Assembly (NCBI RefSeq): GCF_009914755.1
Contig: NC_060930.1
Reading direction: 5' to 3' (one strand)
DNA length: 64,000 nt
From: the human T2T-CHM13v2.0 reference genome, Homo sapiens
Made by a program: the position numbers and the translations under genes. Numbering within the stretch: the stretch's first letter is position 1; the number at the start of each line of letters is the position of its first letter. Positions 1-15,213 of this stretch are shown here, in pieces. Below the pieces are notes generated by a model. It did not search any database, had not been told where the DNA came from, and saw only the letters and a program-made list of their open reading frames with translations.

Positions 1-329
1 TAATAAATTCTGAGAGTCCCAGGTTAAAGTCTTGCCATGTTTGTTTGCTTGTTGCTTATTTATTTGGTTGCCATGTTTGTTTTGACTCTTTTTACTCTTG
101 GCAGATACTCAAGCAGTGAAAGATCTGCTTAAGCAGCCCAAAAGCTGCATAAATGCTTTAAATACACCTGATAAATGCTAGCTACACCTGGATTTTTTAC
201 TGAAGCAGTGAAAAAGATCTTTCGCTGCCTCAACCAGGTGACCAAGGTCAACATCCACAGCGTAAGTCATGTTCATGGTGTGCAGCCTTGATAAATGGGG
301 TAGCAACAACCCTTCACTTTGTGGTCTAC

Positions 330-765
330 CCTCCAAAGACCCAAAACCCCAGTCTAAACATGAGAAATACATCAGATAAATCCCTGCCGAGGATCATTCT
401 AAAACACACCTGACCAATGCTCCTCAAAACAGCCAAGGTTATCAAAAGCAAGAAAAGTCTGAGAAACTCACAGCCATGAGGGCCCAAGGAGACACAACGA
501 CTAAATGTTAAGTATGGAATCTTCGATGCGATTCTGGAGCAGAGAAAGGACATTGGTAAACTTTAAAGATATATGAATACAATATGGGCTTTAGTTAATA
601 ATAATTTAACAATATTGGTTCATTAATTTTAACAAAAATACCCCATTAAGATCAGATGTTAATACTAGGGAGCTTGGGTATGAGGTATATAGGAACTGTC
701 CATACTATTGTTCTAATTTTTCTGTAAATCAAAAACTATACAAAAAAGAAATTTATTTAAATAAT
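330..765 (+). mobile_element. Old L1M (L1MC-like) 3' UTR fragment
   Basis: Typical L1MC 3'-end motifs (CTCCTCAAAAC..CAAGGTTATCAAAA..AGTCTGAGAAACT; GTATATAGGAACT..TTTCTGTAAATC) ending in an A-rich tail; boundaries approximate. Confidence 0.65.
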
Positions 766-4064: not shown

Positions 4065-4364
4065 GCCCGGGTGCGGTGGCTCACACCTATAATCCTAGCA
4101 CTTTGAGAGGCCAAGGTAAGCGGATCACCTGAGGTCAGGAGTTCGAGACCAACCTGGCCAACATGGTGAAACCCCATCTCTATTAAAAAATACAAAAATT
4201 AGCTGGGCGTGGTACCACATGCCTGTAATCCCAGCTACTACTCCGAAGGCTGAGGCAGGAGAATCACTCGAACCCAGGAGGCAGAGTCTGCAGTCAGCCG
4301 AGATCACGCCACTGCACTGCAGCCTGGGTGACAAAAGCCAAGATTGAGACTCCATTTCAAAAAA
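4065..4364 (+). mobile_element. Alu (AluS)
   Basis: Full dimeric Alu; TSD AAGTA(G/C)GAAGGCA at 4052-4064 and 4363-4375. Confidence 0.95.
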
Positions 4365-7925: not shown

Positions 7926-8289
<364 letters not shown>

Positions 8290-9053
8290 TAAATTTTAAT
8301 TATATTTCTTATTATTTTTCCATTCATTTTCTTTGGATTTTTAATTGTTTTATATCACCTCTAATCTGTCATTTGTTATTACTTTATAAAATGACAGGAG
8401 GGAACCATAGTTGGAAAGAGGCCAATTGTAAACACAGTCCTCTCAAGTATCCCATGAAGAGAACTATTCTACAGGAGTGATATTTCTCCTTCCTATTGAT
8501 TCTTCTAACATTAGTCCTTAGAAAAAGGTACAATATAATCATATATAAGCTTTATAGCCAGATTTGCAGAGTTCGGCATTCAATCTTTCTGCCTCCGACT
8601 TGTCTGTGACTGGTCTGATTAGCTCCTTCCAGAAAAGTTACAGGAGAACAACTTGAACTATTACGGTTGTTGTAAGTGCAGGATTTCTTATAAAACTAAA
8701 TGTACACTCAACCAAATAAGCCAGAAACCCACTTCTAATCTTACCCAAGAAAAATGAAAACTATGTTCACACAAAAAACCTAAACATAAATATTTAGGGC
8801 AGCTTTATATGTAAGTGCTAAAAACTAGGAATAATCCAAGTATCCTCTAACTAGTGACTAGATGCACACACTGTGATAGACCCATGCAATGGACCACTGG
8901 AAAACAATAGAAAGAAAGAATTGCTGGTACAGGAGACAACATGGAGGAAGCTCACAGGTGCACTATACTAAGTGAAAGAAGCTAGACTCAAAAGACTACA
9001 TACTCTATGATTCCATTTAGATGATATTTGGGACAAGAAAGCAGATCAGTGGT

Positions 9054-9382
9054 TGTTGGGGTGATCAGACCCAACACCAGGTCGTGGGGGCAACAAAGTC
9101 TGGCGGAGTTAAAGGAATCAGACAGTTTGAGAAAGTGGGACCAGGGGGCCATCGCGAGTGTGGAGGCTGCGAAGGCCCCGAGCTCTGGGAGCCCACGCTA
9201 TTTATTGGTGCTCAAACAGGTGGTGAGGATGTGGGGGTTAAAAGGAAACAGTGTATCAAGTGAATGAGAAATATACAGCTGCTTGAGATAATGGGAGTGC
9301 TAGAAGCAAGGAGCCAGCAAGTCTAGCAGGTATGGAAGCCCCACCTCAGCTTCTCTCCCAACACTCAGCTTTTCTCCCAACA
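9054..9382 (-). mobile_element. 3' LTR (LTR14A-like, 329 bp)
   Basis: Direct repeat of 13324-13669; minus strand begins TGTTGGGAGAAAAGCTGAG and contains AATAAA; preceded by the PPT. Confidence 0.9.
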
Positions 9383-10125: not shown

Positions 10126-10630
10126 TTAAACCTTCAATTTGCACTGTACAGGTGGGTCCACTAGATGCTGTGCCTCATGATAGATCTTCAGATGTTTGGT
10201 GGGCACCCACACAGGCACCTGATTGTCACCTGGAGAGACACAAACAAATCCTCTTCCCCAGAAAATTATCTTTCCTTTTTCCCAGCTCTTTGTATGTGCA
10301 TCCCTCCACCATATATCTTGTCCAGCCTTTTTATTTTCCTTTTGTCCTGTCAGGTGTTGTTCAGCTGCAGTCATGGGTTGAAACACAGCATTAACGGCCC
10401 TTAAATCTGTTAACATTCTCCATTTTCCTGATTTTTTTTCTTAATGACAAATACAGGAGAATACCAAAGGGAGAAAGTAGGCTCTGTATGTCCCTTTTGC
10501 AATTATTCCTGCACCAATTCTTGTAAAGCCTCCAGTTTTTCCTGTTTCAGCAGCCATTGCTCCACCTAAACTGGTTTGGCAGTTAGCCAAACAAGAGGAA
10601 TGGGAGCCAGAGGCTCAACAATGGCTGCTC
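10126..10630 (-). pseudogene. pol: HERV-K pol remnant: RT N-terminus fused to the integrase C-terminus
   Basis: ...SPVFVIKKK(fs)...[15 protein letters not shown] joined directly to TAAEQHLTG...WWRD...[19 protein letters not shown]...PVWVP; stop codons upstream. Confidence 0.9.
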
Positions 10631-11395
10631 CTAAAAATGACAGCCCAATCCAGTCTGATCTGTTTGCCCTTTTAATTCTAAAGGTTCTGATTGGCCCTTT
10701 TTATCTTTTCCTAGTCCTTTTCCCATATTTCTTATCATTTGTCTACTATTATTACTATATTGATCCATAGGAATAGATATTTCAGCACCCCATTGTTGCA
10801 ATAGGTCTCTACCCCATAAATTAACAGGAATAGGTGTAATGATAGGTTGGATTGTCCCTTCCTGACCATCCGGCCCTTAACATGGTAAAATCAAGGAACT
10901 CTGAAAAACTTCCTAGGCAGCTCCTACTCCAACAATACCAATGGATGCCTTTTGCTTAGGCCAGTGCTGGGGCCATTGATTTATAGCAATAATAGAGACA
11001 TCAGCTTCAGTATCTACTAGTCCTTCAAAATCTTTTCCCTGAATAGCTACTGTGCAAATAGGTCTTTTGTCCGACACCTGATTAACCCAATACACAGCCT
11101 TTCCTGCTGGATTAGTATTACCAAAGCCTCCTGTTCTTTTCACTGTGCTGCTTCCTAGTTTTAGGTAAGGTAACAGCAACAACTGAGCAATTCTTTCTCC
11201 TGGGGAGGCAGACCATGGAGTCGAGGAACTAATAACTAATTGAATTTCTCCGGTATAATCACAGTCAATTATTCTCATATGTACAGTGACACCTTTTAAA
11301 TTTAGACTAGACCTTCCACGTAATAGATCGACTGTTCCTGAGGGTAAGGGTCCCCTAACTCCTGTGTGGACCTTCTTTGGTGGCTCCCCAGGAAG
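10631..11395 (-). pseudogene. pro: HERV-K pro remnant: dUTPase (N-truncated) + aspartic protease + G-patch
   Basis: LPGEPPKKVHTG...GRSSLNLKG...IIDCDYTGEIQLVISS...KRTGGFGNT (dUTPase); LVDTEADVS (DTG mutated to DTE); NLWGRDLLQQWG; MGKGLGK G-patch; internal stop at 10913. Confidence 0.9.
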
Positions 11396-12978
11396 TGTGA
11401 ACTAAAAGATGAGTTACATAGGTGTTTACAAAACACAACTGGACATTTTCCATTATTCTGGGATAAACCAAAATAAATTTTAAAATTTCATTTGGAGATT
11501 TCAAAGCTGAAAATGCTTTCAGCAAATTCTTAGATCTTAAGAAAATATATATTGTCTATTGTTTGTAAAATAATTTGCCTTTTTGATCTAAAAATTTTAA
11601 TACTTGAATTTAAATAGGTTTTTCTTCTGGAAAAGTTCTTTGGCATTCAAGCAAAATCAATACTTTCAGAGTAGTCACCTGCATCACACTGGAGTGACTG
11701 CTTTAATTTCTAAAGCATCAATTAGTGTAACCCAGGGTACTGATGGCCTTGATACATGATTTAGTCTTGTCATTACAGTGTGTGGAAATCAGGGCTTTAG
11801 GGGGCATCATCTGACCCCATTTCTTTTTACCACAATGGTTCCTGCTACAATGTCATAGGTTTTTCGATTATGCTGAAAAAACAGCAGTGTGATGAAAGCA
11901 GTGAAAAAAGAAGCAATCAAAAAATTCTTGATCAAAGCTCGTATAGTGGACGTTGTAATACTAACATTTGAGGAAGGAATCACTAAAACCCAACTTAGTG
12001 CAATAAGCACTGATGTCACAACTCGAAGCCCCAGCAGGAACTTCCCTGGGGTAGCTCCACCTGCTCTCCAAATGCAAATTATCTCATAGAAACAAACTAA
12101 TAATCTGTATATAAGAGCCACAACCATCATTTTCTGCAAGTCTTCCATTGATGTGCCTTCATCTATTTATTCCAATATGTAATGCATAGCAAAGAGATAT
12201 CCTCTATCCCACTAAGGTGCATAATGCTTAAGACAATGGTTGCCTTTACAAAAAGAGAATAAAGAAATCCACCATCCTTGCCATAAATCTGTGGCCCAAG
12301 GATGGAATAACATATTCTCTCCCTGCCTCTCGCCCAGTCTCGCTCAGGCTTCACCAAGGGGCCATGGATCCTACCCTCCTCACTGGAGCAGCTCAGACGC
12401 CTGCACATGAGAAGCCTGGTGTCCCAGGCCCACGACTGGAGCAAGGGTGCTGATGCCAGCAGCTGCCCACAGGTCAGGCCCCACTGTCCGGAGAGAAGCG
12501 CCACCCGAAGAGAAGCTCTGTGGGGATGGCTGGGGGCTGCAGTAGGCGGGGAAGGTGACCAGGCACCAGGCCAGGCGAGGCAGCAGCAGCCAGACTGCCA
12601 CAGCCAGCCATGCACCCTCCAGGAGCACCCATGGGTGCTCAGCCACACTGGCCTCTCCCACAGTGCCATAGCTTCGGGCACTTTGCAGCCCGCCTGCTCC
12701 TGCAGCCCCACACGGGAGCCAGAGGCCATCTCCCTGCACCTCCTGAGCTTGTGGGGCGGCTTCAATCCATCAGCAGCAGCGGCCCCGAGGCCTGCGGCTG
12801 TGAGCCAGCCCCGGGGGGCCCCCGTGGGGGCATGGGATGGTGGCAGCAGGAGGGCCCCTCAGAAAAGGGATGGGCTTGTGGTCCCCTCTGCCCTCACACA
12901 CCTGGGAGGGTGGCCTCGTGCCCCCTCGGGACCCCCGCCATCATCGCTCCAGCAGCACCCCCCGCACCACCTGCCACT
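11396..12978 (-). pseudogene. FAM8A1: Intronless FAM8A1 pseudogene (short 5' UTR, whole CDS 12941-11807, about 410 nt 3' UTR) inside the provirus
   Basis: ORF 11807-12148 MEDLQKMMVVALIYRLLVCFYEIICIW.AGGATPGKFLLGLRVV...IVAGTIVVKRNGVR is the FAM8A1 RDD-domain C-terminus. Upstream frames give LQEQAGC..PEA, WLWQS, FPAYCSPQPSPQSF, KATIVLSIMHLSGI. Several frameshifts, no introns. Which numbered FAM8A pseudogene it is cannot be told from sequence alone. Confidence 0.95.
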
Positions 12979-13188
12979 GCTCTGTCCCTATACGCCCTTC
13001 CAAAATCTCCTCCAATTATCCCCCATCCATCCAACTCCACAGTTCCCCGCTCCAGGAACCATGGACAAAACTGTTTCACTGCACCAAACTGACAACAAAT
13101 TCTGAGCACTAACTTTTACTCCCCCACTTCATAACAAATGCTTTGAAAAACTTAAATAAGCAGAATGTCTGCTTTCACTTTGTCCCAT
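12979..13188 (-). pseudogene. gag: HERV-K gag 5' remnant (matrix N-terminus)
   Basis: ATG at 13188: MGQSESRHSAYLSFSKHLL*SGGVKVSAQNLLS (fs) FGAVKQFCPWFLERGTVELDGW, similar to HERV-K MA (MGQ..., QFCPWFPEQGT). Confidence 0.88.
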
Positions 13189-13300: not shown

Positions 13301-13319
13301 ACCCCACATTGGGCAGCCA
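13301..13319 (-). promoter_or_regulatory. Primer binding site, tRNA-Lys(CUU)-like
   Basis: TGGCTGCCCAATGTGGGGT, 4 nt after the 5' LTR, versus canonical TGGCGCCCAACGTGGGGC. Confidence 0.8.
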
Positions 13320-13323
13320 GGAA

Positions 13324-13669
13324 TGTTGAGGTGATCAGACCTAACACCAGGTCGTGGGAGCGACGAAGTCCGGTGGAGCCAAAGGAATGAGAAAAAGACA
13401 GTTTAGGAGAGAAAGTGGGACCACGGGGCCATCGCGAGTGTGGAGGCTGGGAAGGCCCCGAGCTCTGGGAGCCCACATTATTTATTGGTGCTCAACAAAC
13501 AAACAGGTGGTGAGGATGTGGGGGTTGATAGGAAACAGTGTATCAAGTGAATGAGAAACATATGGCTGCTTGAGATAATGGGAGTGCTAGAAGCAAGGAG
13601 CCAGCAAGTCTAGCGGATGTGCAAGCCCTTCCTCAGCTTCTCTCCCAACACTCAGCTTTTCTCCCAACA
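13324..13669 (-). mobile_element. 5' LTR (LTR14A-like, 346 bp)
   Basis: Direct repeat of 9054-9382; followed on the minus strand by the PBS and gag. Confidence 0.9.
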
Positions 13670-13736
13670 AGTGGTTGCCAGGAGCCGGGTATTGGGGGAG
13701 AAGTTGACTACAAAAGGGCATGAAAAATCTTTTTGG

Positions 13737-14026
13737 GGCCAGGTGTGGTTGCTCACACTCCAGCACTTTGGGAGGCTGAGGCAGGCAGATCACTTGATGT
13801 CAGAAATTCAAGACCAGCCTGTCCAACATGGTGAAACCCCGTCTCTACTAAAAATACAGAAATTAGCCAGGTGTGTTGGCAGGTGCCTCTAGTTACAGCT
13901 ACTCAGGAGGCTGAGGCAGGAGAATTGCTTCAACCCAGGAGGTGGAGGTTACAGTGAGCCGAGATTGAGGCACTGCACTCCAGTTTGAGCAATAAGAGCA
14001 AAACCCCATCTCAAAAAAAAGGAAAA
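13737..14026 (+). mobile_element. Alu (AluS)
   Basis: Dimeric Alu with A tail, inserted in the L1M relic. Confidence 0.93.

Positions 14027-14904: not shown

Positions 14905-15213
<309 letters not shown>

What the first reader, a model, noticed from the sequence alone, without database searches (positions are those of the whole stretch)
12894..13188. Gag matrix frame runs in frame into the FAM8A1 start codon: relic of a Gag-FAM8A1 (v-onc-like) fusion protein
Seen: one uninterrupted frame reads FGAVKQFCPWFLERGTVELDGWGIIGGDFGRAYRDRA (MA), then VAGGAGGAAGA (captured 5' UTR, no stop), then MMAG, where ATG 12941 matches the FAM8A1 initiator (MAEGPEEARGHPP; a 1-nt loss follows). Upstream is MGQSES, a myristoylation-type N-terminus. 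Inference: the founding recombinant encoded about 70 aa of myristoylated MA fused to full-length FAM8A1, an ER membrane cofactor of the HRD1 ERAD ligase. This is the architecture of gag-onc fusions, and could have affected ERAD or viral protein turnover. I am not aware that this in-frame fusion has been highlighted. Caveat: frame match has a 1-in-3 chance prior, and this copy is now broken by a stop and frameshifts.
Basis: partly seen in the sequence, partly recalled or inferred. Interest (0 to 1): 0.8.

Follow-up and report, generated by a model that had tools for sequence, protein, structure and literature searches.

The report
Old provirus carrying captured FAM8A1 gene
This is a decayed ancient retrovirus copy that long ago picked up the human gene FAM8A1 so that the start of the viral Gag protein ran in frame into it, but the capture is already published and nothing shows that the fused protein ever mattered.

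Summary
On the minus strand, one open frame (12894..13115) runs from Gag matrix text through 12 codons of captured FAM8A1 5'UTR into the FAM8A1 initiator (12941-12939). The gag ATG is at 13188.

The phase is ancestral. The parent gene has 35 nt between the junction and its ATG. So do 3 of 4 human FAM8A-bearing proviruses (chr6, chr2, chrY); chr11 has a private 7-nt insertion. Ordinary copies of the same HERV-K-type family put the junction after Gag codon 71.

Both junctions are microhomologies (GGAGCAG; ACTTCCTGGGGA), as expected for reverse-transcriptase template switching onto a spliced mRNA. The frame is therefore a roughly 1-in-3 accident.

Nothing indicates selection for the fusion:
- Every copy carries 4-10 frameshifting indels and 2-5 stops in the insert.
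- A 23-nt frameshifting deletion is shared by 3 of 4 independently integrated copies.
- Five replacements at residues conserved in other mammals predate all four copies.
- A stop at Gag codon 20 is present in all 3 copies that keep that region, though it is a CpG site.

The transduction is published (Jamain et al. 2001, not readable here). Side finding: strand-asymmetric A-to-G hypermutation of the insert's 5' part.

The parts
13670..13675 (-). 5' copy of the 6-bp target-site duplication ACCACT
   Evidence: the same hexamer directly flanks both LTRs.
13324..13669 (-). 5' LTR (about 346 bp, TGTTGGG...CAACA)
   Evidence: K2P distance to the 3' LTR is 0.081.
13302..13319 (-). Primer-binding-site-like stretch just after the LTR
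   Evidence: Read. Its likeness to a tRNA-Lys primer binding site is recalled, not tested.
12978..13188 (-). Remnant of Gag matrix, codons 1-71 (MGQSES start). It is broken here by TGA at codon 20 (13131-13129) and a 2-nt deletion, and is heavily A-to-G mutated.
   Evidence: (Gag_p10).
12977..12983 (-). 5' junction microhomology. It reads GGAGCAG in both the ordinary HERV gag and the parent FAM8A1 5'UTR, and AGAGCAG in this copy.
   Evidence: alignment of 4 copies, the parent and 5 ordinary proviruses.
12942..12977 (-). 12 linker codons: the last junction base plus 35 nt of captured FAM8A1 5'UTR, open in the Gag frame
11807..12941 (-). FAM8A1 coding sequence, spliced and intronless. In this copy it is broken by 9 frameshifting deletions and 3 stops in parent-aligned codons. 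Its own stop codon is at 11809-11807.
   Evidence: RDD.
11385..11806 (-). Captured part of the FAM8A1 3'UTR (434 nt in the parent), with no poly(A). It ends in the 12-nt 3' junction microhomology ACTTCCTGGGGA (11396-11385).
10631..11384 (-). Retroviral pro remnant: N-terminally truncated dUTPase, aspartyl protease and G-patch
10126..10620 (-). pol remnants: start of reverse transcriptase joined to integrase C-terminal text. This copy lacks about 650 bp (break near 10381) that the other three copies retain.
   Evidence: The reverse transcriptase and integrase labels are my reading of motifs, not a Pfam result.
9054..9382 (-). 3' LTR, preceded by a purine-rich tract
9048..9053 (-). 3' copy of the target-site duplication ACCACT

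Best explanation
The window holds a 4.6-kb, long-dead HERV-K-type (betaretrovirus-like) provirus on the minus strand. About 1.46 kb of it, from Gag codon 72 into the dUTPase of pro, was replaced by a spliced FAM8A1 cDNA fragment: 35 nt of 5'UTR, the whole 1242-nt CDS and 434 nt of 3'UTR, without poly(A).

Inferred mechanism: a FAM8A1 mRNA was co-packaged with viral RNA, and reverse transcriptase switched templates twice at short identities. One switch was at 12 nt in the 3'UTR/dUTPase, the other at 7 nt in the 5'UTR/matrix. The second switch happened to put 71 matrix codons, 12 UTR codons and the 413 FAM8A1 codons in one phase. The founder could therefore in principle have encoded a Gag(matrix)-FAM8A1 fusion ending at the FAM8A1 stop. 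Nothing downstream (pro, pol) would be translatable from it.

The element had no gag and only a truncated pol, so it was a passenger. It was copied at least four times into new sites by proteins supplied in trans by intact relatives, tens of millions of years ago. The insert evolved without detectable constraint. It took up A-to-G hypermutation, replacements at conserved residues and a 23-nt frameshift while it was still being copied.

Shown: the structure, the junctions, the phase, independent integration and the lesions. Inferred: co-packaging, template switching, trans-complementation and neutrality.
For: Structure:
- LTR pair and perfect 6-bp duplication ACCACT.
- Pfam Gag_p10, RDD, dUTPase, RVP and G-patch.
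- The insert matches the 5 exons of the parent at chr6:17.47 Mb with the introns removed.

Junctions:
- GGAGCAG is common to the ordinary gag and the parent 5'UTR.
- ACTTCCTGGGGA is common to the parent 3'UTR and the ordinary dUTPase region.
- PMC5131818 (passages read) also states microsimilarity at the fusion points, citing Jamain 2001.

Phase:
- 35 nt separate junction and ATG in the parent and in chr6, chr2 and chrY; chr11 has 42 nt through a private 7-nt insertion.
- The gag ATG lies 213 nt from the junction in 13 of 26 ordinary copies with both anchors, and 5 of those are open throughout.

Four copies only were found in this assembly: chr6, chr2, chr11 and chrY. They share one deleted architecture but have unrelated flanks.

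No constraint:
- Each copy has 4-10 frameshifting indels and 2-5 stops.
- The 23-nt deletion at CDS 462-484 is shared by chrY, chr11 and chr6.
- Of 15 CDS differences shared by all four copies, 8 are replacements. Five of these (codons 113, 125, 166, 263, 289) fall where 9 outgroup mammals agree with the human parent (four codons) or carry P or A (codon 166).
- The 7 shared silent differences are about what the parent lineage alone should have accumulated (my inference).

Age: LTR-LTR K2P is 0.081 (chr6) and 0.135 (chr11).
Against: The fusion is in phase and free of stops in the linker, with a myristoylation-type Gag start. A defective element that still reached at least 4 germ-line integrations could have been helped by its cargo.

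The selection test is weak. It rests on only 15 shared differences, and the 7 silent ones could not be polarised without outgroup DNA. If all 7 lay on the stem, 5 replacements to 7 silent changes would be below the neutral ratio and would hint at constraint.

The 23-nt deletion lies between two CGGCGC repeats and could be recurrent. It also conflicts with 9 A-to-G changes shared only by chr2 and chr6. The pro-region tree does not resolve the order of the copies.

Only the human genome was examined.
Confidence: 0.75

Rival explanations
1. Functional Gag-FAM8A1 fusion. The founder expressed a myristoylated matrix-FAM8A1 protein from the LTR. Its effect on HRD1-dependent ER-associated degradation favoured the element, its helper virus or the host, at least until amplification ended.
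For: The phase is ancestral and the 12-codon linker is open. The full-length CDS with its own stop was captured. There are at least 4 independent integrations. FAM8A1 is described as a cofactor of the Hrd1 complex (PMC6987440, passage read, citing Schulz 2017).
Against: The phase has a 1-in-3 prior and follows from where the microhomology lies. Five replacements at conserved residues predate all four copies. The 23-nt frameshift is shared by 3 of 4 copies. A stop at Gag codon 20 is present in 3 of 3 copies that keep it. No extant copy is open. Ordinary relatives without the cargo are far more numerous: at least 40 matches scored out of 67-80 candidates.
Confidence: 0.07
2. The fusion frame was in phase but never open. 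The viral template, or the earliest recombinant, already carried the stop at Gag codon 20, so no Gag-FAM8A1 protein was ever made from the gag ATG.
For: TGA is at codon 20 in chr6, chr11 and chr2. chrY lacks the region. The three copies also share unique neighbouring changes seen in 0 of 21 ordinary copies, so the stem did change here.
Against: The codon is CGA, a CpG site. Among 21 ordinary copies, 8 have TGA, 10 have CAA and 3 have CGA, so three independent hits have a probability of about 0.05. In the insert, all three copies show T at 3 of 65 CpG C sites, against 1.4 expected by chance. Shared descent and recurrence are therefore about equally likely.
Confidence: 0.15
3. The frame continuity is a coincidence of this one decayed copy, produced by its own indels, and says nothing about the founder.
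For: This copy has many private indels and heavy A-to-G mutation around the junction.
Against: The 35-nt spacing is identical in the parent gene and in two other copies. The Gag phase comes from ordinary family members.
Confidence: 0.02

Closest known systems
Transduction of FAM8A1 by an HERV-K provirus (Jamain et al. 2001, Genomics 78:38; known here only through citations in PMC5131818 and PMC6987440)
   Same: It is the same event and the same pseudogene family. PMC5131818 says HERV-K captured FAM8A1 with microsimilarity at the fusion points, giving an untranscribed processed pseudogene. RefSeq names this locus FAM8A6P.
   Different: I could not read the paper, so I cannot say whether it notes the Gag-FAM8A1 phase, the shared 23-nt deletion or the A-to-G bias. 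RefSeq's span (11385-12679) stops about 300 nt short of the FAM8A1-derived sequence, which reaches 12985.
Gag-oncogene fusions of acutely transforming retroviruses (recalled examples: Gag-Abl, Gag-Myc; no call)
   Same: An N-terminal, myristoylation-type Gag piece is in phase with a captured spliced cell gene. Viral genes are lost, so the element depends on a helper.
   Different: The cargo is not an oncogene. The element is endogenous and was fixed in the germ line at least 4 times. No expression, activity or selection of the fusion is shown. Both junctions are microhomology switches onto an mRNA.
LTR-retrotransposon-mediated retrocopies (Tan et al. 2016, PMC5131818; passages read)
   Same: A retrocopy lies inside an LTR element, with microsimilarity at both switch points, 3' truncation and no poly(A). 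The paper lists this case as one of three in human.
   Different: Here the chimaera went on to make further copies.
HERV-K14I proviruses carrying TRPC6 mRNA portions (Flockerzi et al. 2005; title seen in a reference list; content recalled; paper not held)
   Same: Another class II HERV that mobilised a cellular transcript. That family is recalled as largely lacking env, like the element here.
   Different: Whether the FAM8A1 carrier belongs to that group was not tested. I did not assign an HML group.
ADAR-type A-to-G hypermutated proviruses (for example the PCIP-seq paper PMC8025556; search listing only)
   Same: A clustered, strand-asymmetric A-to-G excess on the sense strand.
   Different: Here it is fossilised in germ-line copies and is graded between copies. 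The enzyme is inferred from the pattern only.

Membership tests
Transducing retrovirus with a gag-cell gene fusion | Intronless cellular cDNA inside a provirus bounded by LTRs | tested here: met
   5 exons joined; LTRs and target duplication.
Transducing retrovirus with a gag-cell gene fusion | The cargo replaces viral genes, so the element needs a helper | tested here: met
   About 1.46 kb between the two breakpoints in ordinary copies is replaced. pol is truncated in all four copies. Helper dependence itself is inferred.
Transducing retrovirus with a gag-cell gene fusion | Gag N-terminus in the same reading phase as the captured ORF | tested here: met
   213 nt plus 36 nt before the FAM8A1 ATG. 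No extant copy is open.
Transducing retrovirus with a gag-cell gene fusion | The fusion protein is made and has a biological effect | not testable with these tools
   No expression data. The step that would test it is referred.
Transducing retrovirus with a gag-cell gene fusion | Captured ORF kept by selection while the element spread | tested here: not met
   A shared 23-nt frameshift in 3 of 4 copies. Five stem replacements at conserved residues. Power is low, because the silent changes are unpolarised.
LTR-mediated retrocopy by template switching | Microsimilarity at both switch points | tested here: met
   7 nt at the 5' junction and 12 nt at the 3' junction.
LTR-mediated retrocopy by template switching | Truncated mRNA copy without a poly(A) tail | tested here: met
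   The parent match ends 434 nt into the 3'UTR and passes directly into pro.
HERV-K / class II betaretrovirus-like ERV | Gag_p10 matrix, dUTPase in pro, G-patch after the protease | tested here: met
HERV-K / class II betaretrovirus-like ERV | tRNA-Lys primer binding site | not tested
   The stretch at 13319-13302 looks like one from memory. No tool comparison was made.
HERV-K / class II betaretrovirus-like ERV | Assignment to a named HML group | not tested
   No repeat library is available here. A 346-bp LTR and a form largely without env are only leads.
ADAR-type hypermutation | A-to-G far above T-to-C on one strand, and clustered | tested here: met
   49 of 109 A sites against 4 of 80 T sites (Fisher 2.7e-10), confined to about CDS -35..460. 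One search shows it in the matrix of chr6.
ADAR-type hypermutation | G depleted 5' of edited sites | tested here: inconclusive
   17 of 49 edited against 30 of 60 unedited, p = 0.12.
ADAR-type hypermutation | Edited region forms unusually stable double-stranded RNA | tested here: not met
   The parent 5' 515 nt folds no better than shuffles, z = +0.91. An antisense partner was not tested.

The most novel reading that the evidence does not exclude
In an early catarrhine germ line the founder element expressed, from its LTR, a myristoylated 71-residue matrix piece fused through 12 UTR-encoded residues to full-length FAM8A1. This membrane-tethered cofactor of the HRD1 ligase altered ER-associated degradation in a way that helped the defective element or its helper virus to spread, before the frame decayed. 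It would be a primate endogenous counterpart of a gag-onc fusion, with a quality-control gene as cargo.
Probability: 0.05. Interest if true: 0.65.

Novelty: already known. Interest (0 to 1): 0.3.

Why it matters
The locus is one of three retroviral (LTR-mediated) gene captures that Tan et al. list in the human genome, and it is already described. This check adds three things.
- The capture joined Gag and FAM8A1 in one phase, as in classical transducing viruses.
- The chimaera was copied in trans to at least four sites.
- The cargo shows no sign of having been kept by selection.

It is therefore a clean natural example of neutral passenger transduction by double template switching, not a lost viral oncoprotein.

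The graded, strand-specific A-to-G hypermutation across the copies is a small bonus. It may record RNA editing over successive copying cycles of a germ-line retroelement. It also explains why the annotated pseudogene span stops short of the true 5' end of the insert.

Tried and rejected
Literature:
- The primary paper (Jamain 2001, PubMed id 11707071) is not held. Flockerzi 2005 (PMC548434) is not held.
A broad six-term search returned no FAM8A paper among the 25 listed.
- 'FAM8A1 + endogenous retrovirus' gave 3 papers. 'FAM8A1 + HERV-K' gave 1.
- 'FAM8A1 + gag' gave 22 papers, 15 listed. By its title only PMC5131818 concerns the provirus.
- None of the passages I read mentions a reading frame or a fusion protein. 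These searches cover only the held open-access library.
- The supplements of PMC5131818 held as text contain no 'FAM8A1'. One file was not searched. That supplement (Table 8) may give junction details I could not see.

I worked from loci that had already been delivered.

Analyses that led nowhere:
- The tree of the 1-kb pro region (4 FAM8A copies plus 19 ordinary copies) did not group the FAM8A copies and looks star-like, so it cannot order the copies.
- The RNA fold of the parent 5' region shows no excess structure.
- I did not assign an HML group.

Rejected readings:
- Copies made by segmental duplication: rejected because flanks are unrelated and this copy has a perfect 6-bp duplication.
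- Phase created by this copy's own indels: rejected.

No structure or complex prediction was run.

Full report
**Observation**

The gag ATG (MGQSES) is at 13188-13186. Two adjacent ATGs lie at 12944-12942 and 12941-12939. The second aligns with the initiator of the parent FAM8A1 gene. I assembled the parent CDS from its five exons at chr6:17.47 Mb, and it translates to 413 aa beginning MAEGPEEARGHPP. A 1-nt deletion at CDS position 6 follows in this copy. Pfam finds Gag_p10 in the frame and RDD in the FAM8A-derived part. In this copy the Gag start is cut off from that frame by a TGA at codon 20 (13131-13129) and a 2-nt deletion.

**What the locus is**

- Direct repeats 13324-13669 and 9054-9382 are the two LTRs of a provirus on the minus strand. 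They are flanked by a perfect 6-bp duplication, ACCACT.
- In order, the provirus holds: leader; Gag matrix codons 1-71; FAM8A1 cDNA; an N-terminally truncated dUTPase; protease; G-patch; the start of reverse transcriptase fused to integrase C-terminal text; and the 3' LTR.
- The cDNA consists of 35 nt of 5'UTR, a 1242-nt CDS and 434 nt of 3'UTR. It is spliced and has no poly(A).
- In ordinary relatives the two breakpoints lie about 1.46 kb apart. The cDNA therefore replaced most of gag and the start of pro.
- RefSeq's FAM8A6P span (11385-12679) omits about 300 nt of FAM8A1-derived sequence, which reaches 12985. There the identity to the parent is only 75%.

**Junctions and phase**

- At the 5' junction, ordinary gag and the parent 5'UTR share GGAGCAG.
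- At the 3' junction, the parent 3'UTR and the ordinary dUTPase region share ACTTCCTGGGGA.
- This is the signature of two reverse-transcriptase template switches onto an mRNA. It agrees with what PMC5131818 reports for this case, citing Jamain 2001 (passages read).
- The parent has 35 nt between GGAGCAG and its ATG. So do the chr6, chr2 and chrY copies. chr11 has 42 nt because of a private 7-nt insertion.
- In 26 ordinary family members with both anchors, the distance from the gag ATG to the end of GGAGCA is 213 nt in 13, the modal value. Five of those are open throughout.
- So 71 Gag codons, then 12 codons (the last junction base plus the 35 nt), then the FAM8A1 ATG are in one phase. The linker has no stop in the parent or in the three copies with the original spacing.
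Because the switch point is set by microhomology, the phase is a 1-in-3 accident and carries no statistical weight of its own.

**Copies**

Two searches of the window's own assembly found four FAM8A-bearing proviruses and the parent gene. The tool warns that counts for repeats are lower bounds. The copies are:
- chr6, this window;
- chr2:149.77 Mb;
- chr11:56.27 Mb;
- chrY:13.23 Mb.

All four share the same deleted architecture, about 5.4 kb in chr11. Their flanks are unrelated, so they are separate integrations, not DNA duplications. An element without gag and with a truncated pol can only have been copied by proteins supplied in trans; this is an inference.

LTR-LTR distances are 0.081 (chr6) and 0.135 (chr11). 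This points to tens of millions of years, imprecisely, because the LTR is only about 345 bp.

**Tests for selection or early inactivation**

- Against the parent frame, every copy has 4-10 frameshifting indels and 2-5 stops. None of these lesions is shared by all four.
- A 23-nt deletion at CDS 462-484 has identical ends in chrY, chr11 and chr6 and is absent in chr2. It lies between two CGGCGC repeats, so recurrence cannot be excluded. Taken at face value, the element went on being copied with a broken FAM8A frame.
- Fifteen CDS differences from the parent are shared by all four copies: 8 replacements and 7 silent.
- I polarised the replacements with FAM8A1 proteins from 9 other mammals as outgroups. 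Two (codons 34, 86) are changes on the parent lineage and one (codon 17) is ambiguous. Five (codons 113, 125, 166, 263, 289) are changes on the proviral stem. At four of those five, all 9 outgroups agree with the human parent.
- The 7 silent differences could not be polarised without outgroup DNA. Their number is about what the parent lineage alone should have accumulated (inference). That leaves a stem ratio compatible with no constraint. If all 7 lay on the stem, the ratio would instead hint at constraint. This test is weak.
- Gag codon 20 is TGA in all three copies that keep the region. In 21 ordinary copies it is TGA in 8, CAA in 10 and CGA in 3, so it is a decaying CpG.
- In the insert, all three copies show T at 3 of 65 CpG C sites, against 1.4 expected by chance. 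I put the chance that the stop was already in the common ancestor at roughly 30-50%.

**Side finding**

- In the 5'UTR and CDS 1-700, non-CpG A-to-G changes hit 34 of 95 A sites (chr6), 25 of 103 (chr2), 16 of 104 (chr11) and 14 of 107 (chrY).
- T-to-C changes hit 0 of 67, 4 of 79, 2 of 75 and 3 of 78 T sites in the same copies.
- In the 3' part the two classes are balanced, at 2-4% each.
- Overall, 49 of 109 A sites carry G in at least one copy, against 4 of 80 T sites carrying C (Fisher 2.7e-10). The excess is confined to about CDS -35..460.
- Four of the five stem replacements are A-to-G. chr2 and chr6 share 9 further A-to-G sites.
- The pattern fits ADAR-type editing of the genomic RNA over several copying rounds. 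Two supporting tests did not confirm it: G depletion 5' of the sites is not significant (p = 0.12), and the region folds no better than shuffles (z = +0.91).

**Literature**

- The capture is published (Jamain et al. 2001). I saw it only as cited in PMC5131818 and PMC6987440. The paper itself is not held.
- Searches for FAM8A1 with 'endogenous retrovirus', 'HERV-K' and 'gag' returned no other paper on the provirus. None of the passages I read mentions the frame.
- The role of FAM8A1 with the Hrd1 complex is stated in PMC6987440.

**Verdict**

The locus is a known transduction. The phase is best explained as an accident of template switching, and the available evidence points to a neutral passenger rather than a selected Gag-FAM8A1 protein.

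Noticed in passing
window 12480-13150 (minus strand); the same region in L032, L033, L034: There is a strand-asymmetric A-to-G hypermutation of the 5' part of the FAM8A insert, graded chr6 > chr2 > chr11 > chrY. In chr6 it extends into Gag matrix. A-to-G reaches 13-36% of A sites, against 0-5% T-to-C.
   Followed up: partly
window 12680-12985: RefSeq's FAM8A6P span ends at 12679, but FAM8A1-derived sequence continues to about 12985, covering the 5'UTR and the first 260 nt of the CDS. It is only about 75% identical to the parent.
   Followed up: yes
L071 (chr2:149768814-149770577): The chr2 copy has an insertion of about 1.76 kb inside Gag matrix just upstream of the junction, with about 15 nt duplicated at its ends. 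No 5' LTR was found within the 3.5 kb fetched upstream of its gag.
   Followed up: no
L073 (chrY copy): The chrY copy loses homology upstream of the middle of Gag matrix (5' truncation or replacement). It also has about 1.5 kb of extra sequence in pol compared with chr2 and chr11.
   Followed up: no
window about 10381: This copy alone lacks about 650 bp of reverse transcriptase that the other three copies retain. The match pieces overlap by 10 nt at the break, suggesting a microhomology deletion.
   Followed up: partly
FAM8A CDS 87-565 against 462-484 in the four copies: The markers conflict. chr2 and chr6 alone share 9 A-to-G changes, but the 23-nt deletion groups chr6 with chrY and chr11. 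The cause is recurrent editing or deletion, or recombination between co-packaged RNAs.
   Followed up: partly
parent FAM8A1, codons 34 and 86 (L035): The proviral copies and the New World monkey orthologues agree against the human parent at codons 34 and 86. These replacements therefore arose in the parent gene after the capture.
   Followed up: partly
window 4097-4341, 8010-8262, 13762-14002, 14944-15198: Repeat families that look like Alu-type elements flank the provirus, one directly outside the 5' LTR. The Alu label is my reading, not a tool result.
   Followed up: no
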